From Trypanosoma brucei (taxonomy: Eukaryota): a stretch of DNA of 64,000 nt. The notes beneath the pieces are model-generated. The model ran no database searches and was not told the DNA's origin. It saw only the letters and a program-made list of their open reading frames with translations. Of this stretch, positions 9,391 to 55,869 are shown piece by piece. The translations under genes and the position numbers were made by a program. The stretch's first letter is position 1; every line of letters starts with the position of its first letter. Location of the stretch: the NCBI GenBank assembly GCA_000002445.1, contig CP000067.1, positions 544,001-608,000 of the forward strand, read 5' to 3'.

Positions 9391-12300
9391 GTGGGTGAAA
9401 CCAACCCCCTTATCACAGCTGGTATGGCAGATACCTTGCAACTTCTGGGGGATGTCACAGATGTGTCAAATGCGGCTGCCATAGTCGGGCTCGACACACT
9501 TGTGGAGGAGGGGCGTCTTATCGAAGAGCGAGCCGATTATCTGAAAGAAAAATTCAAAGAGCTCCACAATCGTGTTCTGGTAGTGTACAAACGGGACTTT
9601 TTTCTTTTGAAGAGGGCACGGCAGCTGCGAAAGGAGCTTGATGCCCAGAAGGAGCGGATGGCGGCGCGCGGGAAGATTGCCCAGGATGATGACGCGGAGA
9701 TCCAGCGCTTGAATAAGTTGCTCATGGATACTGAGGAAGAGCTCTCAGATGCCCAGGAGCGCGAGAGTATTCTTCAGGTGGAGGTGCTAGAATTAGATAG
9801 GAAGAAATTTACTGTAGCGCTAGAACGTGAGGATGCTATCGCAGCTGAGGAGGCTCAGTTGAGACCTCGCATGGAGGCTATGCGGCAGGAGGTATCGTCA
9901 ACTGGAAAGGAGCTCGAGGACATGGTGGAACAATGCAAGACCCTTTCTGCGAAGCGCGACGTTTTACTAGCACAGGAAGCGGAGGCTACGGAGGCCCTCG
10001 CTAAGTTTAAAACAACGATGGCGGAGACTACAAGGCAGCTTGCCAACATCGAACGGTTGCCAGAACATTCCCTTAGACAGGCACAGGTGATTCTGAAGAG
10101 TTACGAAGCTGCGTTGCTTGAGGCGAAGGCCCTGGACGAGAAGTTGGCCGCTCAAGCTGACATGATAGCAAAGCTAGAGTTGAAGAAGAACAATCGCAAC
10201 TTGGACTACGAGCAGGCTGTGGCCAACCTGCAGAAACTCAAATCCAAGATAGACTCAAAACGCGTCACCATTGCCACCCTCAACACTTCATTAGAGATGG
10301 AGCAGGAGGCACGTCTGGGGTATCAACAACGAATAGCTCAAATAGAAGATCTCATTAACACCACCAATGCCACAAGGGCCAAACAGTGTGAAGACGTGGA
10401 ACAGGCGAGACGGGATCTAGAGCAGGCTCGGGAGGAGTATGCGGAACTTGACATTGCGCTCTGCAAAATTATAAAAGAGCAGAAGGATGTAAAGGACAAC
10501 ATAACCAGTGTAATGAAAACTATCGAGCGTGTGGAAACTACGCGCAAAAGAAACGCACAACGCTTAGACGACGCGAAACGGGATGCAGAGAGACGAAATC
10601 AACTTTTCTTGAAGGAGCAAGGCTATGAGAAGGAGTTTACCGCAAAGGTTGGAGCGGTTAGCGCTGATATCAAGGTGATAGAGAAGGAGATCATAAACCG
10701 AACGCTGCAGGAGGAGACAAAACGTCGTGAGATCAAAGCCTTGGTCGTTCGTCTACAGGAACTCAGTAAGGAGAAAGCTAAGGGCAAGAGCCGTATCATC
10801 ATAGGGAAACATGAGCTACGGATGAAGGAGATGTACGTGAGCGATGCCCGGAAGCGTCTCTCCGACTTAGAACTTCGACTTGATTCTATCATCGATACGT
10901 TCCAGAGCATCAAGCATGAACGGACTCACAAGGCTGCGCAGATACAGGCTATAACACAAAAGATGACTGAGATGACTGAGAAAAAGGCCATTCTTGAGAA
11001 TGAGCTTGTTGTCCTATGCCGAGAGTCCGCTGTAAAGGAGGCTGAGTTGGTGAAGAAGCGAAGGCAAATTCACAAACTCCGACAATCATGCAGGGCGCTC
11101 CGGTTGGAGAAAAACAATCAGCGAAAATGCTTGGAAAAAAGGAGTTTGGAAGAACGTAATATAAAGGCTCAAGCCCGGCGGGTGGCCAGCCGCATTGCCA
11201 CCATGGAGGAGGAGATGGGAGGCGCGAAGCGGAACTATCAAAACATTATCGAGAACCGTGACGGTGCTGGCATTCAGCTTCTTGACAGGAACGATGAGTT
11301 GTGTGTGTTGTACGAACGCTTCAAGACGCAAGAGAAGGTTATCCGCGATGGAATCACCGTGGACAATGCTCGTGAGGAGGAGATACGGGCGCTGCGCATA
11401 AAATTTACTGATGTCCGTCGTCAGGTTGACCTTGTTCGCGCTTCGGTGCCTCAGGTGAAGGAACTGGAGGACCGGCTGGCAAAAATCCTGAATGACATTG
11501 ATGATGAAAAGTGGAAGGTGGAGGTTCTAGAAAATGACCTCACAAATCCAAAGAACGCGCACCGCTGGCGGCTTCTTAAAAGACAAAACGCGGGGAGGAG
11601 CGTCGCCTCAGGCGTCACCGCCCCCCAGCAGGCACACTCCGACGTCGTTGCTACTGCCTCCCCTGGTGAGGCAGCACCGAGCGCCATTGTGACTGCGTCT
11701 GACAGCTGCTCGGACGACGTCGTTGACTTGCAGCAGCGATATCAGCAGTTGGAGGAACGCGTCAGAAATGTCAACGAGCGTATCCGTGAAAAGGAGCTCA
11801 TTCTCGAGGAGGTGACTGAGTTGTCGACGCGTTTAGCTGAGCAAGTTAAGAACGGGCGTGAGTTTACCCTAGCACTCACGAAACAGGTGAATTCTCACCA
11901 TCACAGCATTCGGGCAAAGACGAGGCAGATGATGGCTACCGTTTCCGAACTCTCTGTTTTTCAGGCATCCGCAATTCAGTTGCAACAAGACGTGCAGCGT
12001 CTTGAAGGCATCGTTGAGGAAGCGGAGCGGCTGATGGCGGAGGGTGAGGCTCCTTTCGCTGAGGCAGAGGAGCGGTACATTAGAGAAGTTGAGGGCAAGG
12101 CGCGGTACAGGAACGTTCTGCGGCGCAAAAAAGAGGAATTGGAATCGGAGAAATCCAAGGGTCCCAAGGTTTACGTCGAGCAACGGCCGAATGCTTACAT
12201 CCCGGATGACGGTTTGAGTGTTCCGAAACCATTTGGGGCCCTAATGCCCTTCAAACCGACGCCGGCAGTTCAAACATCGCGGTATTACAGGAGTAAATCC

Positions 12301-12426
12301 GAACGTTCTCGAGATAGCGATGGGCCGAAACGAGGCCCATACTCGGAGTCTTATAGCGGTGGGGGTAGCTTAAAGGGCAACGACAATGGGCCCCCTAAAA
12401 CCAACCACTTTTCGCTGACGCAGTGA
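9391..12426 (+). CDS. Large coiled-coil protein (about 1011 aa), function unknown
   Basis: Uninterrupted 3 kb ORF that is very rich in E/K/R/L/Q heptad-like sequence, with a low-complexity Ser/Ala/Val insert near residues 730-780. A shorter start at 9424 (MADTLQ) is possible. Confidence 0.65.
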   Translation: MGETNPLITAGMADTLQLLGDVTDVSNAAAIVGLDTLVEEGRLIEERADYLKEKFKELHNRVLVVYKRDFFLLKRARQLRKELDAQKERMAARGKIAQDDDAEIQRLNKLLMDTEEELSDAQERESILQVEVLELDRKKFTVALEREDAIAAEEAQLRPRMEAMRQEVSSTGKELEDMVEQCKTLSAKRDVLLAQEAEATEALAKFKTTMAETTRQLANIERLPEHSLRQAQVILKSYEAALLEAKALDEKLAAQADMIAKLELKKNNRNLDYEQAVANLQKLKSKIDSKRVTIATLNTSLEMEQEARLGYQQRIAQIEDLINTTNATRAKQCEDVEQARRDLEQAREEYAELDIALCKIIKEQKDVKDNITSVMKTIERVETTRKRNAQRLDDAKRDAERRNQLFLKEQGYEKEFTAKVGAVSADIKVIEKEIINRTLQEETKRREIKALVVRLQELSKEKAKGKSRIIIGKHELRMKEMYVSDARKRLSDLELRLDSIIDTFQSIKHERTHKAAQIQAITQKMTEMTEKKAILENELVVLCRESAVKEAELVKKRRQIHKLRQSCRALRLEKNNQRKCLEKRSLEERNIKAQARRVASRIATMEEEMGGAKRNYQNIIENRDGAGIQLLDRNDELCVLYERFKTQEKVIRDGITVDNAREEEIRALRIKFTDVRRQVDLVRASVPQVKELEDRLAKILNDIDDEKWKVEVLENDLTNPKNAHRWRLLKRQNAGRSVASGVTAPQQAHSDVVATASPGEAAPSAIVTASDSCSDDVVDLQQRYQQLEERVRNVNERIREKELILEEVTELSTRLAEQVKNGREFTLALTKQVNSHHHSIRAKTRQMMATVSELSVFQASAIQLQQDVQRLEGIVEEAERLMAEGEAPFAEAEERYIREVEGKARYRNVLRRKKEELESEKSKGPKVYVEQRPNAYIPDDGLSVPKPFGALMPFKPTPAVQTSRYYRSKSERSRDSDGPKRGPYSESYSGGGSLKGNDNGPPKTNHFSLTQ

Positions 12427-30675: not shown

Positions 30676-32793
30676 ATGGAGACGACATGCAAGGAGGATG
30701 TTCCTCAAGTACGTTTCCCATCACCTACTTCTTCCAAGTCGATGACGACCTCGCCGCAAAAACTGTCGATCTTGGGCGACATCACCGCCGAGCCCTTGTC
30801 TGCACGCCGTTCATTTAACGATGTGTCAAAGGTGAGGGAACCTGATGGACGCTGGTGCCGGAAGTTTCTTTCAACGTACTTCCGGTGTGAACTCTGTCAG
30901 AATGTAGTGACGGACCCTGTGCAGATTTTACCGAATGTGCTGTTGGTGTGCAGGCGATGCGCCCTCTCGAGGCGTGTGCCATCAAAGGACCTGCAAGAAC
31001 TTCCAGTTAGCTTGACGAGGGCTTTTGAGGATTTGTACGAGGGACAGAGGGAAGTCCAGCTGCCGTCAGCCAGCCGAATGAGTGAGATAGGAAGGGCGAG
31101 CACAACCTCGGATGAAGCCATATGCAAGAGAAGAATGGTACGAGTGAAGCGCCCGGATGCGGTGCAGGAGGGTAGTGACCATAGTCAAACTTTCCCGCTA
31201 GCAGCTTCTATTAACGGTACACTGAATGCCTCAGGGCGGTCATCAGTGCCTCTTCTACTTAACAAGGCGCTGTGCGAACTGGAAAACAAAGAATACTGTA
31301 TGCGGGTAGAAATAGAGTCTGCTGAGGCTTCTGGTGCACTGGAGCTGAAGAAGAGCTACAACTCCGATATGCGAAAGATAACCGCACGCAGCTGCGGGAC
31401 CAGCAAAACATTGAAAACGGACGCAGATCAAAAGTATGAACAGGCTGAATATACCCTGGCGCTGGAGCTGTACACGAAGGCAATTGAGCTTCAGCCCCGT
31501 GATCGCCTCACTCGTCTTACCGCTTTGTATGGAAACAGGAGTTCTGCCTACTTCATGGCCATGCGGTATGCTGAGTGTATAGCGGATTGCATGAAGGTGG
31601 TTGAGCTGGACCCGAACAATGTGAAATTGTTCGCTCGTGCAGCAAAGGCTGCAGCCATCATGGGTGACCTCACCGCGGCTGTGTCCCACATGGAATCGAT
31701 TCCGGAGGAACGTGTTACACCCAATATCATTAGTGAAAGGGAAAAGTATAAAAATGGACTTGACACGTACAAACGCGCTGAGTCATCCTTTGGAAAATCT
31801 GATAGTGACGATGCTTGGCAGATGCTTGTTGCCCAATTCAGTGACACCATCTTTTTTCGCATCCGCTACGCTGAGTCGTTGCAAAACCAGAAACGATTTT
31901 TGAAGGCAGTTGAGGTGCTTGACGTCGTTCCGCAGGAACGCAGGACCCCCAAACTCCTGTACATTATGGCTGCTTGTCTTTTTATGTGCGGGTTTGAACA
32001 CTTTGATAAGGCACGCACTTGTTTAGAGGATGTCCAGCAATTGGACGAAAACTGTGCCCAGTTGTTGAAGGTCCTGAATATAGTAGATGAGGGCAAGCAG
32101 AAGGGGAACCAGTACTTCCAGCAGAAGAAGTTTGTAGCTGCTATGGAGCACTACACTACAGCCATCGGCGCTGCGGTAAACAACAATCAGATATTGCGCA
32201 TCCTCTACTGCAATCGAGCTGCGTCCTACAAGGAAGTAGGAAAATATCGTGAAGCCATTGAAGATTGTACCAGAACCATTCAGCTCGACCCAGCCTTCTC
32301 TAAGGCTTACGCGAGGCGTGCGCGGTGCCATCAGGCACTTAGTGACTTTGCTTCTGCTATCCGTGATTTCAAGGCGGCGATAAAGTACGATCCGAACGAT
32401 CAGGAGTTGCCACGGGAGCTCCGGAGTTGCGAGCAGAGCATGGCGAAGGAAGGCGAACGTGAGAGGGACTATTACTACGTTCTGGGCGTCAGTCGTAATG
32501 CTACCGAACGCGAAATTAAGGCAAGGTATCGTGAACTCTCACTCCGCTGGCATCCGGATAAATGCATGTCACTCCCAGAAGAGGAGCGTGTGGTTGCGGA
32601 GCGCAAGTTTAAGATTATTGTGGAGGCGCACACGACGCTTATCGATGCCGTAAAGCGGCGGGACTACGACCTTAAAATGGAGAAGGAACGGCTGACGCGA
32701 AGTGGCGGATTCGGTGGATTTAATGGTTACAGTTCAGAAACGTTCCGTGGGCATTCTAATCGTTTCCGTCAAGGCAGTAGTGGATTTTGGTGA
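30676..32793 (+). CDS. TPR-repeat DnaJ (J-domain) co-chaperone, DNAJC7-like, with N-terminal Cys-rich U-box/RING-like segment
   Basis: The C-terminal J domain is DYYYVLGVSRNATEREIKARYRELSLRWHPDKC with HPD. Multiple 34-residue TPR repeats precede it (AEYTLALELYTKAIELQP; GNQYFQQKKFVAAMEHYTTAI; AYARRARCHQALSDFASAIRDFKAAIKYDP). The N-terminus has FRCELCQNVVTDPVQILPNVLLVCRRCA. Confidence 0.85.
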   Translation: METTCKEDVPQVRFPSPTSSKSMTTSPQKLSILGDITAEPLSARRSFNDVSKVREPDGRWCRKFLSTYFRCELCQNVVTDPVQILPNVLLVCRRCALSRRVPSKDLQELPVSLTRAFEDLYEGQREVQLPSASRMSEIGRASTTSDEAICKRRMVRVKRPDAVQEGSDHSQTFPLAASINGTLNASGRSSVPLLLNKALCELENKEYCMRVEIESAEASGALELKKSYNSDMRKITARSCGTSKTLKTDADQKYEQAEYTLALELYTKAIELQPRDRLTRLTALYGNRSSAYFMAMRYAECIADCMKVVELDPNNVKLFARAAKAAAIMGDLTAAVSHMESIPEERVTPNIISEREKYKNGLDTYKRAESSFGKSDSDDAWQMLVAQFSDTIFFRIRYAESLQNQKRFLKAVEVLDVVPQERRTPKLLYIMAACLFMCGFEHFDKARTCLEDVQQLDENCAQLLKVLNIVDEGKQKGNQYFQQKKFVAAMEHYTTAIGAAVNNNQILRILYCNRAASYKEVGKYREAIEDCTRTIQLDPAFSKAYARRARCHQALSDFASAIRDFKAAIKYDPNDQELPRELRSCEQSMAKEGERERDYYYVLGVSRNATEREIKARYRELSLRWHPDKCMSLPEEERVVAERKFKIIVEAHTTLIDAVKRRDYDLKMEKERLTRSGGFGGFNGYSSETFRGHSNRFRQGSSGFW

Positions 32794-39449: not shown

Positions 39450-40451
39450 ATGATATTACGGCACTCTCGCCGCCTGTTGGCGATGGAGGGGGAGCGCAAA
39501 TTCACATTTCCAAGCACTCCAGCAACTCTCAGTACTGGCGGCGTGCCCTTCTATGGTAATATTTACGCAGGACGTGTTGACACACAAAATTATGTGCCTC
39601 CACCACAAGAGGGGTCTGGACTTATCAAACCAAACAGTAGCGCGTGGGACGACCCTCAGGTGCGCTCTAAGATTGAGCGGTGCCCGTATTTTGCGCTCTG
39701 CGATCAGGTTGTATGGCACAATATGGATCCAGCTTACTTGGACCCCGGCCTCCTTACAATGGAGGAGCACCAGTTGCTGCTACTATTTAGCCGTGCATAC
39801 TATGAAAAGTGGAAGTTAATCCACAAGCGGCCGCCCAATGCTCTTCCACGCGTGCGCATTAAGTACGGGTCCACCGTTCTTTTAGAAGAAATGTTGGAGC
39901 TCATCGACGTTCCGGTGCCCGTGCGGCGTGCACTGGTAAGGGAGTTTCAGGTCGACGACGCCTCCCTTATCGCTATGGACCCCGACTGCTGGTCAGCCGC
40001 GTACCTCGACCCGTTTAACAGGGATCATTTTTCCGGTCGCGTGCTGGAGTTTGCTGACATGAGTGAGGCTCATCGTGAGAAGTTCTACCTCCTTCTGCGG
40101 CAGATGCGTCGTATTGTTGTGGTGCGACGGGATACACCAGAAGAGGAGCGGTTGGTGCTACCCTTTTCGTCTGGTATAACATTGTATGACCTTTCTAAAT
40201 ATTTAGGTATTGAGCCGTACGGTGGTCAACTGAAGGTTTACGATTATGTGGACCTCCAGAAGACACAACAGGTGATTACACTGAAGGATGAGGACAGTTA
40301 CTTTGACTACCTCGTCACGACTTTCTTTAAGGCAAACCTCCGCAACGCCACCCTTAGCGACGTTGCTGACGACATGGACAACACAGCGCGGTACACCATT
40401 ACCGTGGAGCCCTTCACTGTTGCCGAGAGGCGCATCGGACGATGGTTTTGA
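39450..40451 (+). CDS. Hypothetical protein (333 aa)
   Basis: Uninterrupted ORF with diverse, non-repetitive amino-acid composition on the transcription-unit strand. An alternative start is the ATG at 39483 (MEGERKF). Confidence 0.5.
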   Translation: MILRHSRRLLAMEGERKFTFPSTPATLSTGGVPFYGNIYAGRVDTQNYVPPPQEGSGLIKPNSSAWDDPQVRSKIERCPYFALCDQVVWHNMDPAYLDPGLLTMEEHQLLLLFSRAYYEKWKLIHKRPPNALPRVRIKYGSTVLLEEMLELIDVPVPVRRALVREFQVDDASLIAMDPDCWSAAYLDPFNRDHFSGRVLEFADMSEAHREKFYLLLRQMRRIVVVRRDTPEEERLVLPFSSGITLYDLSKYLGIEPYGGQLKVYDYVDLQKTQQVITLKDEDSYFDYLVTTFFKANLRNATLSDVADDMDNTARYTITVEPFTVAERRIGRWF

Positions 40452-43498: not shown

Positions 43499-44062
43499 AT
43501 GACGCAAAACAAGGTGAGGAAGTCCAGTTCCATCATTTCTACCATACGTGGAGCTCTCTCCTTTACACGGAAGGATGAAGGGAGTCCTGCGGGTTCGCTC
43601 GGCACCCCGCTGATACGCAGCGACCCGGTTCCCATGTGTTTCCGTCGACCCCAATCATCACATGGCTGCCCGGCTGCCAGCAATCCAACTTCTTTTACTC
43701 TTCGCTCTCATGCGATGGATGACAGGAGGGATTTACTGGAAGAGGAGGAGGCGATGTTTGGTGGATTCCGACCAAAGGAGGAGGCCCTTCGAGGGAGTTC
43801 TGGTTTTTGTATTTCATCACTTTCCTTTTCACCACAACTCGTCGCAATGAATGGGGACCTTTCACCCAGTGAGCGATGGGATGATTATGATGGTTATGAT
43901 CAATATAATAATAATAATATTAATGGTGATGATGATGATGATGATGATGATTCGAACTGTAAGTTTCATGTACACAGTGAGGAGCCGCCTGCTGGCACCC
44001 GCAAGCGAGTGGAGGAATGGATAAAGACTCAAATGCCTACCGTCAAACCAGCCGCTTCATGA
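43499..44062 (+). CDS. Hypothetical protein with poly-Asn/poly-Asp tract
   Basis: 187-aa ORF inside an otherwise ORF-free low-complexity spacer. It contains NNNNINGDDDDDDDDS encoded by (AAT)n(GAT)n. Coding status is uncertain. Confidence 0.3.
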   Translation: MTQNKVRKSSSIISTIRGALSFTRKDEGSPAGSLGTPLIRSDPVPMCFRRPQSSHGCPAASNPTSFTLRSHAMDDRRDLLEEEEAMFGGFRPKEEALRGSSGFCISSLSFSPQLVAMNGDLSPSERWDDYDGYDQYNNNNINGDDDDDDDDSNCKFHVHSEEPPAGTRKRVEEWIKTQMPTVKPAAS

Positions 44063-44280
44063 GGCGGGGGGGGGAGGGGGAAAAAAAGAAAAAAAAAGAA
44101 AGAAAGAAGGTTTTACTTTCTCCTATTACCTTGATTTCAATGAACATTGGATTCAACTTTTTCATTTGGTTTTTTTTCTTGGTTTGTGCTTGTGTTTAAA
44201 GTTTTACACCCACTCGTTATTTTCGTTTCGATTTTTTCCCCCATCCATTTCTTTTCGTTTCTACACGCTGCATAGACTGA

Positions 44281-44342
44281 TTTATATATTTATTTATTTA
44301 TTTATTTGAATGCACGAATAAAGTAAATAAATAAATAAATTA
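44281..44342. repeat. Inverted microsatellite (ATTT)5 ... (AAAT)4, a potential hairpin
   Basis: tttatatatttatttatttatttatttgaatgcacgaataaagtaaataaataaataaatt; the two arms are reverse complements with a spacer of about 16 nt. Confidence 0.8.
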
Positions 44343-45934
44343 GACGATGCTGCAAGGGTTTTTGACTTAGTTTCTTGCAGTAAATATGCAGTGATTGGTA
44401 AAAGAAAAAAAAAAGATAAATGGACAACGGGTGGGTTGTTGGGGAGTTTTTTTTTTTTGAATTAATATTATTGATTTTTTTCCACTTCTTTTTTTTTTCG
44501 TGCTGTTTCCCGTTTTCTTTTTTTTTTTTTTACTTTGGTTAACTGAGATGGTAATTGCTTTTTCTTCATTTTTTTTTAATTTTTTTTTTTTCGCGTGTGT
44601 GTGTCTGAGTGGGTTTGTGTGGCCGTGTCTCTGCCTGTTTTTTGTTTGTTTGTTTTTTTTTTTTTTTTGGTGGTGGTGGTGGTGATGGTTTAAATGAAGT
44701 GATGATCAGAAGGTGAAGGAGAAAAGTGACAAAAATGGTATAATTAATTTTAAAAAAAAGAAAAGGAGAAAAAGAAAAATTGACAACGCGTGAGAATTTG
44801 ATTGTGTGCGGGTGGGAAAATTTTTTTTTTCCTTTCCTTCCTTTTTACATGATATCAACTTTGCATCTCCATTCATGATGCCAGACACAAGAACTTATGT
44901 ATGTATGAATTAAATAATTTATATTTATTTATCTCAACATTAAAATATACGAGTACGCACATGTGTGTATTCATGATTGGAGAAAATAGAAAGGAAAGGA
45001 GGAAGTGTTTGGTTGGGTGCAAATCTTCTTCTTTCTTTCTTTCTTTCTTCTTTGTTTTTTTATATTATTATTATTATTATTTTATTTATTACTTCATTCC
45101 ATTTCCCCATCCTGTGCTTTGCCCATCTGAAGCAAACAACTGATTATTTAAGTAAAATAATAATAATATTATTGTTATTATTGGTATTGGTATTGTATTA
45201 AGATGAATTCACGGATGGAGACAAAATGAAGAGGAAAGTCGATAAGCTTCCCAGTTTGTATGCGTATTTGTCTGTTTTCGTTTTTTTTGTTTTTTGTTTT
45301 GTTATTTAGAGTGGGGAGGAGGTTTGGACGAATGAAAAAAAAATAAATGCTCTCATGCTTGCTTATACGTTGCCGCGCCCGCGTTTGTGTCTCTTTAGTT
45401 CTTAATATATTTTATGTGCTGCATTCTCTTAAGTAGTAAAGGAGAAGAGGAAGGAAAATGAAGGAAAGAGAAGAAAAGTCAAGTAAATCTTAAATTTACA
45501 GGAAAAAGAGGGAATAGGAGAACACGATAGAGTGAATAAATAAATATATCAACGGAAACGAATACATATATATATATATATATATTACAAAAGAGTCCAA
45601 CTGGAAGGTAACACGGTTGCGCGCCTATTTTGCGGATCGGTAATATATATATATATATATATATGTTTATTTGTGGATTTTGTAATTCAGTTTCCTCCTT
45701 TCCTGTGATTGTGCAATTTGGATATTTGTATTATCCATATGTGTTTGTACATTTACGCGCCCTTGTGTAATAATAGTAATTACGGTAGTATTGAGCCCCC
45801 ACACCCACATGAAGCGGCACATATATTTATTTATTTATTTTGTTTATCCCGTAGCGCTTTCTTTCGTTTTTATCTATTTTATGTTTGTAGTGGTGGTAAC
45901 GTAAGTTATTGTCACCGCTTTCCTGTGCCGTCCC

Positions 45935-45984
45935 GTACTGTACTGTACTGTACTGTACTGTACTGTACTGTACTGTACTGTACT
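45935..45984. repeat. (TACTG)~10 pentanucleotide tandem repeat
   Basis: Direct reading: gtactgtactgtactg..., flanked by (AT)n and (CA)n runs. Confidence 0.95.
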
Positions 45985-45994
45985 AGGCCGTCTC

Positions 45995-46029
<35 letters not shown>

Positions 46030-47894
46030 TTATCTTGGAATATATTTCACACTACCAATTTCGCAGTGGCGCAATGGAAATAAGGAAAGAATTAGCGGTG
46101 TCAGTTCTATCGTCACTGTTTCAACATTTCATCACAGTCAGATGCGTCTGTGTGCAGTTTTCAATGTAGATATTTTAAGGAACAATCACCATAATAATTA
46201 AGGCGCTTTTGATGCATTAAACCGCAGAGTCACGCGGTGTCGCTCTTTTTTTTTTTTTTTGTTGTTGTTATTGTTGTGTTTGCCGAGTGTTTCACCTCTC
46301 AAATAAATTTAAAATTACACAAACGTATTTACGCATATTTATATGTGTGCGCTTTGTTTTTTGTTCCCGCATGTTGTACATACCTCCGCTTCCCTTTTGC
46401 GATTATTATTTCCATTTATTTGTGTATTAATAATATAATTAGTGTTTCGACACGTGCTTCTTTTTTTTTTTTTGCTTTCCGTTATTTTACATTATTATTG
46501 CCTCGTCAAGCGACCCGGATGGCGTTATCTGTTTTGTTGTATGTCTTCATCTATGTCTTGTCTGTTTTCTGATTATCTTAGTTTAGTTTAGTTTTTTTTT
46601 CCTGTTCATCTACTCGTCTTTCCTCTTATTTTTTCCTTCCAGCATTTGTTTAAATTATTGTTGTTTAGTATGTTTTTTTTTTCTTCTATTTTCGCTATTA
46701 CTTATCACCATTGGTTTTGGAGGCTCGTCAATTATTTATTTATTTATTTACTTTTCTGCTGTGCTATTTTATTGTTATTATTTTTTCGTTCTTCTAAATA
46801 ATTCCTTCGAAGGGGAGCGGAGAATAATGTGGGTGTCATCAGAGAATGGTGAAGGGGAACTCCACTCCTTTAAAAAAAAAAAAAGAAGAAAAGGAGAAAA
46901 AAACGGCAACACAAAACAACACATGTCGTGTTGAATTGTTTAGTTGTTTGAGTGCTTAAATTGTGGTTTCGCTGGAGCAGTGAAGAGAACAAGAAATATA
47001 TGAGCATAAATAAATAAATATATTTTTATCATGGAAGTGATGAATCATTGAGTGAAATGAGTGAGTTTTGTTTTAGTGTTGTGTTGTGTTGTGTTGTGTG
47101 CTTACCTTCTTGAGGACGCGTTTGGGAGGATTATGTTGTGAGCGGAGTTACCACTCAACTTGGAGTGGAGGTGCACATTATTAATATTATTATTTTAGTA
47201 TCTGCCTTTACATACGTGGTTCTGTGGGCGTAAATATAAATATACATGTGTGACTCAGTACAAAATGTAGGAGGCAAGTTATAAGCAGCGGGAGTGCTTG
47301 TCCATGTAACCGGCCTGTGTAACGCAGCAGTTTTCTTTTCTTTTCTTTTTTTCCTTTTCCTCTTGCTCGTCTCGTTGCAAAGAGAAATTGAAAACAAAAA
47401 AAAAAAAGAAAAATAGGAGAGCAGAAAAAAAAAAACAACAAAATTGACTTCACTGGAATGGGAATTCGTTCATTACCTTTTCATTTCATTCGTACTTCTC
47501 TTTTTTTTTTTTTGACTCCCGCGTTTCTTTCTTACCTTCCACTACTCATTCAAGGTAATTGATGTTTTACTTTCTTCTTTTTCTTTTTGTTTTTTTTTGT
47601 CAAAAATAAGTAAACCGGTCCGTGGTTTTTTTATATCTGTAGGTCGTTGATCGAAACAACCACCGCCGATCAGTTTCCGAAGTGAAGGGCGGTCTCCCCC
47701 TCCTCTTTTGGGCCCGACACGTGAATAGACAAACTCACATTCATATTTAAGGAGAACGAAAGGTGTGGCAAGAACCAACCAAACAAAACACAAGGATTAA
47801 ATAAAGGGAGAATAAAAAATAAAAAATACGGTATAGATCTTCTTCATAGAAACTATCGTCCCACTCTTCTTCCTACTGCTTACAGAAATCAAAA

Positions 47895-53748: not shown

Positions 53749-55869
53749 ATGTCTGCGGTTTCTTCTCCTAAGCAGTCTCAGCATTCCGATGTGAAATTTC
53801 CTGAGATTGTGCCACGGATGGATGAAGCGATGGATGAGGTAAAAGAGGAGGCGCAAGTGGAGAGAGAGGAAGTAGAAGAAGAATTCCACTTACCTGTCTG
53901 TTTTCGCATGCATTATGATGCACTTCCATATCCACGAACAAATGTCTTCCGTGGGCCAAGTACGTATCGATTGCATTCCCAGATTGTTTTGCCGTTCATA
54001 AAACCGCTGTCCTCCGCCACTGTTGGTGAGTTGGTGTCCCGCTTCACCGCACGGGCGTTCAAGTGTTACCCTGAGCTATCTGATTTTGTGGTTGAGGCCT
54101 TGTATCCGTGCTTTCAAGGGACGACAACTAGTGGTGATAATGTATTCATTGGTCATTTGTCGGACCGTATTGTTGTCAAGGAGCATGCAGCGTCCCCGCT
54201 GTTGAGCTTCCTCGCTCCCACCACACCGGGCAAAACGGCGGTGTATGACCTTTTCACGCTATGGAGGGGGACAAAAACGCGTTGTGGATCAGCACAAATG
54301 CCGGTGCTGGCTCCCATATGCCATAATGCTGACATGAAAAATGGTGGAAGGCAGCAGGAAAACGCAATGATTTACACGTGGCCCAACGTGTCTCTCAGTG
54401 AAATCCCCTACCCGCTCAAGCACAGATGTCCCCTCACGAAGTTGCCTCCACTCTTCAGCTCAGGAGAGGAAGGTGGTTTATGCGATGGCTTACCTGCGGT
54501 TCATTCGCGATTAAACCCGGAGCAGAGGAAGCTGCTGGACCAACTCGTTGGTTTTGAGTCGGAGGAACGTCACGCTCGCAGTAGTATTTTGGAAGATGAA
54601 GGAGTGTCTTGGAGAAGCTTTCGGGAATGGGAATTAGACGCTAGGCGACGTACAGTGGTTCTGTTGCGTCTGAAGAGTAGAGATGCATCTAAAGTACCAT
54701 TATGTGGTCTTGAAGAGTTTAATGTACCCGAGTTTCCCCGCACGTACCCTGTGGATACGGTTCCACTAATATCCCCCGAAAAGATGGTAAAGCTTGAAAA
54801 GGTGAAGGAGTACTCGATAGACACTGTTTGGCTATCCCGCGCATTTGCCAGGTATGAGAAACGTCAATCTTGCGACACCAACGACACCCAACCGCAGCCG
54901 CTGCCCTCAAAGCTTCGTGAATGCAATGGGAATGCCGTTGCATCAAGCGCACAACTAGGTGAGAACATAGACAATAGTGTTGATAAGGGCGATGAGTCCG
55001 ATGAGATGGACGAGCTCATTGATCAGTTCGCAGATTTCCGTCGCGACTTGCTAATGTTGGAGCGCAAAGAGTTCCGTAGTCTTACAGCAGGATTTCGGCT
55101 CATTCTGGAGCGGCAGAGAGAGTTTGAAGAGGAGTACATGAAGGAAATAATGGCTGATGAGCTACGCGGTACGGATGTGTTAGATGCTGAAAGCTATGAG
55201 GCGCCTTATGATTCGCAGAATGTCAATGGCGCATGGACTTGTGTCGCAAGAATGAGCGCATCTCCACAAGATTATAGTGCAAATCTGCCAAATGGGTGCG
55301 CTGCGTCGTCGCCGGCGCCACCGTCCACATGCGCATCACCTGCTAAAGTGGTAAAGGAGGTCGAGCTAGTTGGAGATTCGCCCAAGTTTCCATCTTATGA
55401 AAAGAGGGAGTGCGACATAGGCGTTAAGGCTGTCACGTGTCCGGACTTCGAGGATGGGATTCCTTACCGCAAGATTCTGACCGATAAAGAGGCACGCGTT
55501 CGGGCTGCACTCGATACCATTGAACGTATTGATTCCCAGTGGTCTGAACCCATGTGGTTGAAGGTGGGGAAACGTCGTGTGGAGCATTGTGAAGCTGATG
55601 TACGACGTAAGTTGTATGCGGACGAGGTTGCTAGGAGATGTGATATATGCATTTGTCAGAGGCAGGATGTGGAACACATGAAAGAGAAGAAACGCCTTGC
55701 GCTCGTCAGAGCCTTTGAACCTATCGTCGAGGGAGAGGAAGAGGACCGTATGGCTATTTACGAGGAAGAGGAGCGTTGGCGATCGCTTCTTCTTTCCTTG
55801 TGTCTCCGTGGTGTAGTGCTGCTGAAGACTTTTAGGCCTCAGCGTTGGGGATGGGACGATGATGTATAA
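53749..55869 (+). CDS. Hypothetical protein (706 aa)
   Basis: Long uninterrupted ORF with coding-like composition and an acidic N-terminus (EEAQVEREEVEEE). I recognise no domain. Confidence 0.55.
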   Translation: MSAVSSPKQSQHSDVKFPEIVPRMDEAMDEVKEEAQVEREEVEEEFHLPVCFRMHYDALPYPRTNVFRGPSTYRLHSQIVLPFIKPLSSATVGELVSRFTARAFKCYPELSDFVVEALYPCFQGTTTSGDNVFIGHLSDRIVVKEHAASPLLSFLAPTTPGKTAVYDLFTLWRGTKTRCGSAQMPVLAPICHNADMKNGGRQQENAMIYTWPNVSLSEIPYPLKHRCPLTKLPPLFSSGEEGGLCDGLPAVHSRLNPEQRKLLDQLVGFESEERHARSSILEDEGVSWRSFREWELDARRRTVVLLRLKSRDASKVPLCGLEEFNVPEFPRTYPVDTVPLISPEKMVKLEKVKEYSIDTVWLSRAFARYEKRQSCDTNDTQPQPLPSKLRECNGNAVASSAQLGENIDNSVDKGDESDEMDELIDQFADFRRDLLMLERKEFRSLTAGFRLILERQREFEEEYMKEIMADELRGTDVLDAESYEAPYDSQNVNGAWTCVARMSASPQDYSANLPNGCAASSPAPPSTCASPAKVVKEVELVGDSPKFPSYEKRECDIGVKAVTCPDFEDGIPYRKILTDKEARVRAALDTIERIDSQWSEPMWLKVGKRRVEHCEADVRRKLYADEVARRCDICICQRQDVEHMKEKKRLALVRAFEPIVEGEEEDRMAIYEEEERWRSLLLSLCLRGVVLLKTFRPQRWGWDDDV

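What the first reader, a model, noticed from the sequence alone, without database searches (positions are those of the whole stretch)
30676..32793. Co-chaperone combining a U-box/RING-like Cys cluster, TPR repeats and a J-domain
The TPR + DnaJ arrangement matches DNAJC7/TPR2. The N-terminus also has FRCELCQNVVTDPVQILPNVLLVCRRCA. This is a C-x2-C...C-x2-C pattern with a 'TDPV' core, reminiscent of U-box/RING E3 motifs; CHIP pairs TPR with U-box. A single polypeptide with a ubiquitin-ligase-like module, Hsp70/Hsp90-docking TPRs and an Hsp70-activating J domain would be an unusual triage factor.
Basis: inference. Interest (0 to 1): 0.5.

Follow-up and report, generated by a model that had tools for sequence, protein, structure and literature searches.

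The report
Trypanosome co-chaperone with RING-like zinc module
This Trypanosoma brucei gene (Tb927.4.2220, J-protein "J51") encodes an Hsp70/Hsp90 co-chaperone whose undescribed N-terminal four-cysteine module is strictly conserved and is predicted to fold like a one-zinc RING/U-box domain, but the surface such domains use to recruit ubiquitin-conjugating enzymes is not conserved, so a ubiquitin-ligase role is possible but unproven.

Summary
[quoted passage not shown] It has nine-TPR-type repeats with an invariant EEVD carboxylate clamp, a J domain with an invariant HPD motif, and the N-terminal motif C71-x2-C74...D80-P-V82...C92-x2-C95.

All four Cys are invariant in 23 J51 relatives down to about 25% module identity. 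No Pfam RING, U-box or zinc-finger model reaches significance, and sequence profiles alone cannot separate LIM, RING and zinc-ribbon.

Three lines of evidence point to a RING-like fold:
- hhalign against a true RING family aligns C1/C2/C5/C6 in register (P = 7e-5; 0 of 100 shuffles reach it).
- A true RING protein is among the few non-J51 hits of an exhaustive profile search.

Caveats:
- The module is low-confidence in the full-length model.
- Only zinc site 1 exists.
- The central helix and loop 2, which form the E2 groove, are unconserved.

Verdict: a new single-zinc RING-like variant on a DNAJC7-like body. It is most likely a scaffold or dimerisation module; E3 activity has a probability of about 0.25.

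The parts
30676..32793 (+). Complete intron-less CDS of 705 aa plus stop: T. brucei Tb927.4.2220 / Tb427.04.2220, kinetoplastid J-protein J51
   Evidence: ORF list. 100% identity to P0001 = AAZ10813.1 / CBH10513.1 / T. equiperdum protein. Gene ID from PMC9633767. J51 assignment by architecture and length relative to LmjF34.2430 / LINF_340029700.
30676..30846 (+). Residues 1-57: poorly conserved, predicted disordered Ser/Pro-rich leader carrying phosphosite S42 (nt 30799-30801)
   Evidence: pLDDT <50 for residues 1-56. Phosphopeptide residues 30-44.
30847..31059 (+). Residues 58-128: RING/U-box-like single-zinc module. It consists of an N-terminal amphipathic helix (58-68), a C71-x2-C74 knuckle, a D80-P-V82 strand, a hairpin, C92-R-x-C95 at the start of a short helix (93-98), a variable loop (97-105), E108-L109-P110 and a C-terminal helix (111-128).
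30886..30960 (+). Putative zinc ligands C71 (30886-30888), C74 (30895-30897), C92 (30949-30951) and C95 (30958-30960), equivalent to RING ligands C1, C2, C5 and C6 (zinc site 1)
   Evidence: Invariant in 23/23 sequences. Register from hhalign and from ungapped alignment with the true RINGs of P0017 and P0045.
31108..31155 (+). Residues 145-160, SDEAICKRRMVRVKRP: conserved acidic-then-basic linear motif (R152, R156, K158, R159 invariant in 11 orthologues) inside a disordered linker. Possibly a nuclear-localisation or docking motif.
   Evidence: Alignment A1 invariant columns. Disordered in AF2, residues 128-191 with pLDDT <50. The function is inference only.
31246..31386 (+). Residues 191-237: single long predicted helix between the RING-like module and the TPRs (candidate coiled coil or dimerisation element)
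   Evidence: AF2 full-length model, helix H191-237, pLDDT about 67-83.
31402..32460 (+). Residues 243-595: TPR solenoid of DNAJC7/DNAJC3 type. The C-terminal triad (470-577; nt 32083-32406) carries a complete two-carboxylate (EEVD) clamp: K474, N478, N513, K543, R547. The first triad has K247, D251 (not N), N287, K317, R321.
   Evidence: Pfam TPR families. PDB sequence hits to HOP, RPAP3, PP5, SGTA and TOM70 clamp domains. Clamp residues invariant in A1. pLDDT >90. Best solved match P58IPK/DNAJC3 at E=3.7e-14.
32464..32697 (+). Residues 597-674: J domain with invariant H626-P627-D628
   Evidence: Pfam DnaJ E=3.7e-20, residues 598-665. HPD invariant. PDB J-domain hits.
32698..32790 (+). Residues 675-705: Gly/Phe-rich disordered tail ending in a conserved aromatic-Trp C-terminus (G-F704-W705-COOH)
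   Evidence: F704 and W705 are at least 90% conserved. Distant relatives end in FW, YW, NW or FF. pLDDT <50. G/F region annotated for Leishmania J51.

Best explanation
The gene encodes kinetoplastid J51, a DNAJC7-like Hsp70/Hsp90 co-chaperone. Its C-terminal TPR triad docks the EEVD tails of cytosolic Hsp70/Hsp83 through a canonical carboxylate clamp, and its HPD J domain then stimulates Hsp70 ATP hydrolysis so that a client is loaded. These steps are inferred from invariant signature residues. The lineage-specific N-terminal extension carries a roughly 70-residue module that binds one Zn2+ through C71/C74/C92/C95. It adopts a RING/U-box-like fold in which only zinc site 1 (RING ligands C1, C2, C5, C6) survives, and site 2 (C3, H4, C7, C8) is replaced by non-ligand residues and a shortened loop. 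The conserved residues are the fold core plus the two flanking amphipathic helices, like those that mediate dimerisation in BRCA1/BARD1, RING1B/BMI1, Rad18 and TRIM RINGs. The E2-binding groove is not conserved. The module therefore most likely serves as a non-catalytic, RING-derived interaction or dimerisation scaffold that positions or targets the chaperone-recruiting TPR-J body, rather than as an autonomous ubiquitin ligase. Shown here: ORF, domains, conservation, predicted fold similarity. Inferred: zinc binding, dimerisation or targeting role, lack of E3 activity.
Against: No Pfam RING or U-box model is significant for this protein or for any of 21 relatives. The best sequence-profile hits to solved structures are LIM fingers (CRP1 7.9e-4, PINCH 3.2e-3), ahead of BARD1 (0.038). 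Weak eIF2beta/eIF5 ribbon hits recur in 6 of 21 members. In the full-length AF2 model the module is low-confidence (pLDDT 45-68) and the hairpin is not formed. The MSA is shallow (11 sequences), and AF2 may be pattern-matching CxxC...DPV. Foldseek E-values are weak (0.03-0.3; none at or below 1e-3). Invariant P110 and conserved L73 could still be remnants of an E2 interface, and U-boxes and SP-RINGs show that loss of zinc sites is compatible with ligase activity. No experimental data on zinc binding, dimerisation or localisation were found. Literature statements on localisation conflict (basal body or flagellar pocket versus cytosol).
Confidence: 0.45

Rival explanations
1. Active chaperone-coupled ubiquitin ligase. 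The single-zinc RING-like module recruits an E2~Ub while the TPR clamp and J domain hold Hsp70/Hsp90 and their client, so one polypeptide both loads Hsp70 and ubiquitinates the client: a CHIP-like triage factor with a built-in J domain.
For: RING/U-box-like predicted fold, including matches to the CHIP, Ufd2/E4B and LubX U-boxes. L73 at the C1+2 E2-contact position is 87% hydrophobic, and P110 is invariant. U-box and SP-RING domains are active with fewer or no zinc sites (established knowledge). An independent lineage (stramenopiles) fuses a fully canonical RING to the same TPR-J body, which shows that this functional combination is selected in nature.
Against: The central helix and loop 2 (residues 97-105) are the least conserved and most length-variable part of the module. 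There is no conserved hydrophobic residue at C6+4, and no conserved linchpin Arg/Lys after the C8-equivalent (L113 is hydrophobic). The segment from C6 to the C-terminal helix is about 11 residues shorter than in true RINGs. No profile-level RING or U-box match. The J51 body is not specifically related to the true RING-TPR-J family.
Confidence: 0.25
2. The module is a generic four-cysteine treble-clef or zinc-ribbon finger unrelated to RING/U-box (LIM-half-like or eIF2beta/Elf1-like). It would bind a protein partner or nucleic acid, and the RING-like AF2 model is an artefact of motif resemblance.
For: The best sequence-profile hits are LIM second fingers, which have identical C-x2-C-x17-C-x2-C spacing. 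eIF-5_eIF-2B and Zn_ribbon_Elf1 are the recurrent weak Pfam hits. The module is low-confidence in the full-length model.
Confidence: 0.25
3. The cysteines do not bind metal but form structural or redox-active disulfides (a CxxC thiol switch regulating the co-chaperone).
For: Two CxxC pairs are the classical redox motif, and chaperone networks contain redox switches such as the Hsp33 and DnaJ zinc centres (established knowledge).
Against: The protein is cytosolic or nuclear-type, with no signal peptide or transmembrane segment. The paired CxxC motifs with 17-residue spacing and a following helix fit a tetrahedral zinc site. There is no thioredoxin-like context.
Confidence: 0.05

Closest known systems
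CHIP / STUB1 (TPR + U-box E3)
   Different: CHIP has the TPR at the N-terminus and the U-box at the C-terminus, no J domain, no zinc, and conserved E2 contacts. J51 has the module at the N-terminus, one putative zinc site, nine-TPR-type repeats plus a J domain, and an unconserved E2 groove. There is no sequence-profile match to PF04564.
DNAJC7 / TPR2 and DNAJC3 / P58IPK (TPR + J co-chaperones)
   Same: The body is the same: multiple TPR triads followed by a C-terminal J domain with HPD, and a clamp-type TPR.
   Different: J51 has a roughly 240-residue N-terminal extension (RING-like module, basic motif, long helix) that DNAJC7 and DNAJC3 lack. The kinetoplastid DNAJC7 orthologue is a separate gene, J52 / Tb927.10.4900. 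J51 forms its own clade.
Stramenopile RING-TRAF-like-zf-TPR-DnaJ proteins (e.g. Hondaea fermentalgiana 'DnaJ-like subfamily C member 7', Rhizochromulina marina A0A7S2RN34)
   Same: Same domain order: an N-terminal RING-type domain, then TPRs, then a J domain. The first 33 residues of the RING align with the J51 module in register.
   Different: These have a complete C3HC4 RING (Pfam-significant) with conserved E2-contact residues plus a TRAF-like Cys/His segment. Their TPR-J body is no closer to J51 than DNAJC7 is (91 vs 125 bits; separate clades), so the architectures probably arose independently.
Zinc-depleted or non-catalytic RING variants: SP-RING (Siz/PIAS, Nse2/Mms21), Pex12 RING, BARD1, PCGF/BMI1
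   Different: The SP-RING keeps the other zinc site (site 2; from memory, not tested here). Those proteins are not fused to chaperone-recruiting domains. No partner RING for J51 is known.
LIM domain second finger / eIF2beta-eIF5 zinc ribbon
   Same: Same C-x2-C-x17-19-C-x2-C spacing; the best (sub-threshold to marginal) sequence-profile hits.
   Different: LIM needs two contiguous fingers. Ribbons lack the helix that starts at the second CxxC and lack the flanking helices. Neither fold appears among the structural matches.

Membership tests
J-domain protein (Hsp40), DNAJC7-like TPR-J class | J domain with HPD tripeptide | tested here: met
   Pfam DnaJ E=3.7e-20; H626-P627-D628 invariant in 11/11.
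J-domain protein (Hsp40), DNAJC7-like TPR-J class | Clamp-type TPR domain with the K-N-N-K-R two-carboxylate clamp | tested here: met
   K474, N478, N513, K543 and R547 invariant; strong hits to HOP, PP5, RPAP3 and SGTA clamp domains. The first TPR triad has D251 in place of the first Asn, so only one canonical clamp is present.
J-domain protein (Hsp40), DNAJC7-like TPR-J class | Orthology to DNAJC7 | tested here: not met
   The literature assigns the DNAJC7 orthologue to J52 / Tb927.10.4900. J51 forms a separate clade from DNAJC7-like sequences. It is a kinetoplastid paralogue with DNAJC7-like architecture.
J-domain protein (Hsp40), DNAJC7-like TPR-J class | Physical binding of Hsp70/Hsp90 EEVD tails and stimulation of Hsp70 ATPase | not testable with these tools
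   Requires biochemistry.
RING finger (C3HC4 / C3H2C3) | Eight Cys/His ligands forming two cross-braced zinc sites | tested here: not met
   Only C1, C2, C5 and C6 equivalents are present. The C3/H4 equivalents N87/L89 are variable, and there are no C7/C8 equivalents in any of the 23 sequences.
RING finger (C3HC4 / C3H2C3) | Significant match to RING sequence profiles | tested here: not met
   No RING Pfam hit at E<=10 for this protein. Isolated sub-threshold hits in 1 of 21 members each. hhalign to a true RING family gives P=6.9e-5 and probability 63% over 33 columns: supportive but partial.
RING finger (C3HC4 / C3H2C3) | RING beta-beta-alpha fold | tested here: inconclusive
RING finger (C3HC4 / C3H2C3) | Conserved E2-contact residues (hydrophobic at C1+2, Trp/Leu at C6+4, Pro at C7+1, linchpin after C8) | tested here: not met
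   Only C1+2 (L73) is mostly hydrophobic. C6+4 is Arg or polar and variable. The loop-2 region is variable in sequence and length. The true RING-TPR-J family conserves all of these.
U-box (PF04564) | Match to the U-box profile; zinc sites replaced by salt-bridge and H-bond networks (no Cys ligands) | tested here: not met
E3 ubiquitin ligase (functional class) | E2 binding and E2~Ub discharge | not testable with these tools
   Needs in vitro ubiquitination and E2-binding assays.
LIM domain | Two contiguous zinc fingers, C-x2-C-x16-23-H-x2-C-x2-C-x2-C-x16-21-C-x2-(C/H/D) | tested here: not met
   A single four-Cys cluster only. LIM Pfam hits occur in 3 of 21 members, all below threshold. PDB hits cover one finger only.
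eIF2beta/eIF5-type zinc ribbon (PF01873) | Profile match above threshold; both CxxC knuckles in beta-hairpins | tested here: not met
   Best E=0.021-0.17 with bit scores around 12-13 against a cut-off of 27. A helix starts at the second CxxC in both AF2 runs.

The most novel reading that the evidence does not exclude
J51 is an active, minimal single-zinc RING E3 ligase fused to an EEVD-clamp TPR and a J domain. One polypeptide would dock Hsp70/Hsp90, fire Hsp70's ATPase and ubiquitinate the bound client. This would be a kinetoplastid-specific 'CHIP-plus-Hsp40' triage enzyme, with a convergent full-RING counterpart in stramenopiles.
Probability: 0.25. Interest if true: 0.7.

Novelty: new variant of a known kind. 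Interest (0 to 1): 0.45.

Why it matters
Published catalogues of trypanosomatid J-proteins list J51 only as "TPR + C-terminal J domain (+G/F)", and none of the Leishmania or T. brucei J-proteins of this type has been characterised biochemically.

Recognising a strictly conserved, RING-derived zinc module at its N-terminus gives this orphan co-chaperone a testable handle. Either it is a chaperone-coupled ubiquitin ligase of a new minimal type, or it is a pseudo-RING used for dimerisation or targeting.

A canonical RING is fused to the same TPR-J body in stramenopiles, apparently independently. This suggests that linking Hsp70 activation to RING-type domains is a recurrent evolutionary solution that has not been studied.

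The module is absent from the human DNAJC7 and DNAJC3 counterparts, which makes it a parasite-specific feature of a proteostasis factor.

Tried and rejected
1. A homology search with the N-terminal 240 aa alone found nothing, because of the word-index limit. The full-length search and the exhaustive profile search succeeded.
2. Pfam on the N-terminus at E<=10 gave only noise (Mso1_C, Zn_ribbon_Elf1, eIF-5_eIF-2B, TRI4_N). The per-member scan of 21 modules gave no consistent significant family.
3. hmmsearch of module profiles against PDB sequences was ambiguous between LIM, RING and ribbon, so it was rejected as a basis for classification.
4. The afdb50 fold library was not available.
5. Shared ancestry of J51 with the stramenopile RING-TPR-J family was tested and not supported.
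6. P0040 and P0042 from the profile search look like repeat or low-complexity noise and were ignored.
7. Literature searches for Tb927.4.2220 and Leishmania gene IDs, for single-zinc RING + TPR + J, and for CHIP in trypanosomatids gave nothing useful. Whether kinetoplastids have a CHIP orthologue was not established.
8. Rfam found no RNA families in the window.
9. Model coordinates are not exposed, so Cys-Cys distances and the E2 surface could not be measured.

Full report
**1. Observation**

Window 30676-32793 (+) is a single uninterrupted ORF of 705 codons plus TGA. In-frame stops lie just upstream of the ATG. The surroundings are a one-strand array of intron-less ORFs separated by pyrimidine-rich spacers: a Sec7 GEF, a GTPase, a glycosyltransferase, an aminotransferase, a sugar transporter and a class II tRNA synthetase.

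[quoted passage not shown] The Lister 427 gene ID is Tb427.04.2220. By length and architecture it corresponds to the kinetoplastid J-protein 'J51' (LmjF34.2430 / LINF_340029700).

A published phosphopeptide covering residues 30-44 (pS42) shows that the N-terminal extension is made in bloodstream parasites.

**2. The TPR-J body**

Pfam finds TPRs (TPR_1 E=4.4e-25) and a DnaJ domain at 598-665 (E=3.7e-20). The PDB sequence search hits EEVD-clamp TPR domains (HOP, RPAP3, PP5, SGTA, TOM70) and DNAJC3/P58IPK across TPR + J.

In an alignment of 11 orthologues (69-39% identity), the two-carboxylate-clamp residues K474, N478, N513, K543 and R547 and the HPD tripeptide H626-P627-D628 are invariant. The first TPR triad has D251 where the clamp Asn would be.

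The full-length AF2 model has pLDDT >90 through residues 243-670. Its best solved match is P58IPK (Foldseek E=3.7e-14). The DNAJC7-like description of the body is therefore correct. However, the literature assigns the true DNAJC7 orthologue to a different gene, J52 / Tb927.10.4900, and J51 forms its own clade.

**3. Is the Cys cluster real?**

A CxxC-x12-25-CxxC pattern occurs in 0.5% of shuffles of this protein. Conservation is the stronger argument. C71, C74, C92 and C95 are invariant in 11 of 11 orthologues.

An exhaustive profile search of 1.84 billion representatives returned about 12 more J51-type proteins. The cysteines are invariant in all 23 modules, whose identity to the T. brucei module falls to about 25%. 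Also conserved are D80-P81-V82 (87-91%), R93 (91%), E108-L109-P110 (P110 100%), and the hydrophobic faces of an N-terminal helix (W60, F64, Y68, F69) and a C-terminal helix (L113, A116, F117, L120).

**4. What fold is it?**

*Sequence profiles alone do not decide.*
- No Pfam RING, U-box or zinc-finger model hits residues 1-175 or 50-110 at E<=10.
- A scan of 21 family members gives only scattered sub-threshold hits: eIF-5_eIF-2B in 6 of 21, LIM in 3 of 21, and single hits to several RING families.
- hmmsearch against PDB sequences ranks LIM fingers first (7.9e-4, 3.2e-3), then BARD1 and RAG1 RINGs (0.04-0.06) and eIF2beta (0.09).

*Three further lines point to RING.*
- **(b) Profile-profile comparison.** The search found a true family of C3HC4-RING + TRAF-like zf + TPR + DnaJ proteins in stramenopiles. 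hhalign of the 23 J51 modules against those RINGs gives P=6.9e-5 (probability 63%) over 33 columns. C71/C74/C92/C95 fall on RING ligands C1/C2/C5/C6, and N87/L89 fall on C3/H4. None of 100 column shuffles reaches the score, even with the Cys columns held fixed.
- **(c) The exhaustive search.** A bona fide RING protein (P0045) hits at E=7.4e-4 in the same ungapped register. A Gigaspora protein (P0041) carries two similar four-Cys DPV modules.

*Caveat.* In the full-length AF2 run the module has pLDDT of only 45-68 and the hairpin is not formed, although helices 58-68, 93-98 and 111-128 recur. The MSA was shallow (11 sequences). I put the probability of the RING/U-box-like fold at about 0.7.

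**5. Is it likely to be a ligase?**

The module keeps only zinc site 1. The site-2 positions are variable, and the stretch between C6 and the C-terminal helix is about 11 residues shorter than in true RINGs.

Of the canonical E2-contact positions, only C1+2 (L73) is mostly hydrophobic. C6+4 is Arg or polar. Residues 97-105, which correspond to the central helix and loop 2, are the most variable part in both sequence and length. The stramenopile RING-TPR-J family, by contrast, conserves I/V at C1+2, W at C6+4 and Pro after C7.

**6. Evolution**

The J51 TPR-J body is no closer to the stramenopile RING-TPR-J proteins (mean 91 bits) than to DNAJC7-like proteins (mean 125 bits). The three groups form separate clades in a crude NJ tree. 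The two RING-type N-terminal additions therefore look independent, which suggests that this combination is functionally favoured.

The distant J51 relatives come from unnamed environmental or SRA assemblies with kinetoplastid-like gene organisation. Their taxa could not be determined.

**7. Comparison with what is known, and novelty**

The gene and its TPR-J domains are annotated and catalogued. The N-terminal module is not mentioned in the J-protein or Hsp90 co-chaperone surveys I could read, and no paper in the library cites Tb927.4.2220.

The module fails the membership tests for RING (ligand count, profiles, E2 residues), U-box (profile, zinc-free), LIM and eIF2beta ribbon. It resembles RING and U-box at the level of predicted fold. 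I class it as a new variant of a known kind: a single-zinc, RING-derived domain on a DNAJC7-like co-chaperone.

**8. Verdict**

Interest is moderate (0.45). The conserved module is real and undescribed, and the architecture is suggestive. However, the fold rests on a prediction that is context-sensitive, and the evidence leans against canonical E3 activity.

Noticed in passing
window 32785-32790 (residues 704-705) and tail 32698-32790: The protein ends in a conserved aromatic-Trp C-terminus (…GFW-COOH). Distant J51 relatives end in FW, YW, NW or FF after a Gly/Phe-rich disordered tail. A conserved extreme C-terminal motif next to carboxylate-clamp TPRs could be an intramolecular (autoinhibitory) or intermolecular TPR ligand.
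   Followed up: partly
window 31108-31155 (residues 145-160): A conserved motif, DD-S-I-A-x-RR-x-V-R-V-KR (R152, R156, K158, R159 invariant in 11 orthologues and recognisable in distant relatives), sits in an otherwise disordered linker between the RING-like module and the long helix. It may be a nuclear-localisation signal or a docking motif.
   Followed up: partly
window 30799-30801 (S42): Published phosphoproteomics report that phospho-S42 (peptide LSILGDITAEPLsAR) is lost (about 100-fold) on knockdown of the pseudokinase NRP1, a regulator of transferrin endocytosis (PMC9633767). This links J51 to a flagellar-pocket or endocytosis signalling pathway.
   Followed up: partly
P0017, P0046-P0063 (not in the window; stramenopile transcriptomes and genomes): A family of about 18 clusters with a canonical C3HC4 RING + TRAF-like Cys/His segment + TPRs + J domain (e.g. 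Hondaea fermentalgiana, Rhizochromulina marina). It appears to be an unstudied true RING-TPR-Hsp40 architecture.
   Followed up: partly
P0041 (Gigaspora rosea RIB00794.1), residues ~160-205 and ~362-407: A fungal coiled-coil protein carries two copies of a similar C-x2-C…DPV…C-R-x-C module lacking RING site-2 ligands. The single-zinc 'DPV' module therefore may exist outside kinetoplastids.
   Followed up: no
window ~44000-47800: An AT-rich (31-36% GC, against about 48-50% elsewhere) stretch of roughly 3.8 kb without long ORFs lies inside the same-strand gene array. It contains a perfect (GTACT)x10 microsatellite at 45935-45984. No Rfam family and no larger tandem array were found.
   Followed up: partly
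window 53749-55869 (+) and 39450-40451 (+): Two long ORFs (706 aa and 333 aa) have no Pfam domain at E<=1e-5. They are probably kinetoplastid-specific hypothetical proteins.
   Followed up: no
window 9391-12426 (+): A 1011-aa ORF matches the CFAP58 central coiled coil (E=2.2e-12), so it is a flagellar/ciliary protein gene in the same array.
   Followed up: no
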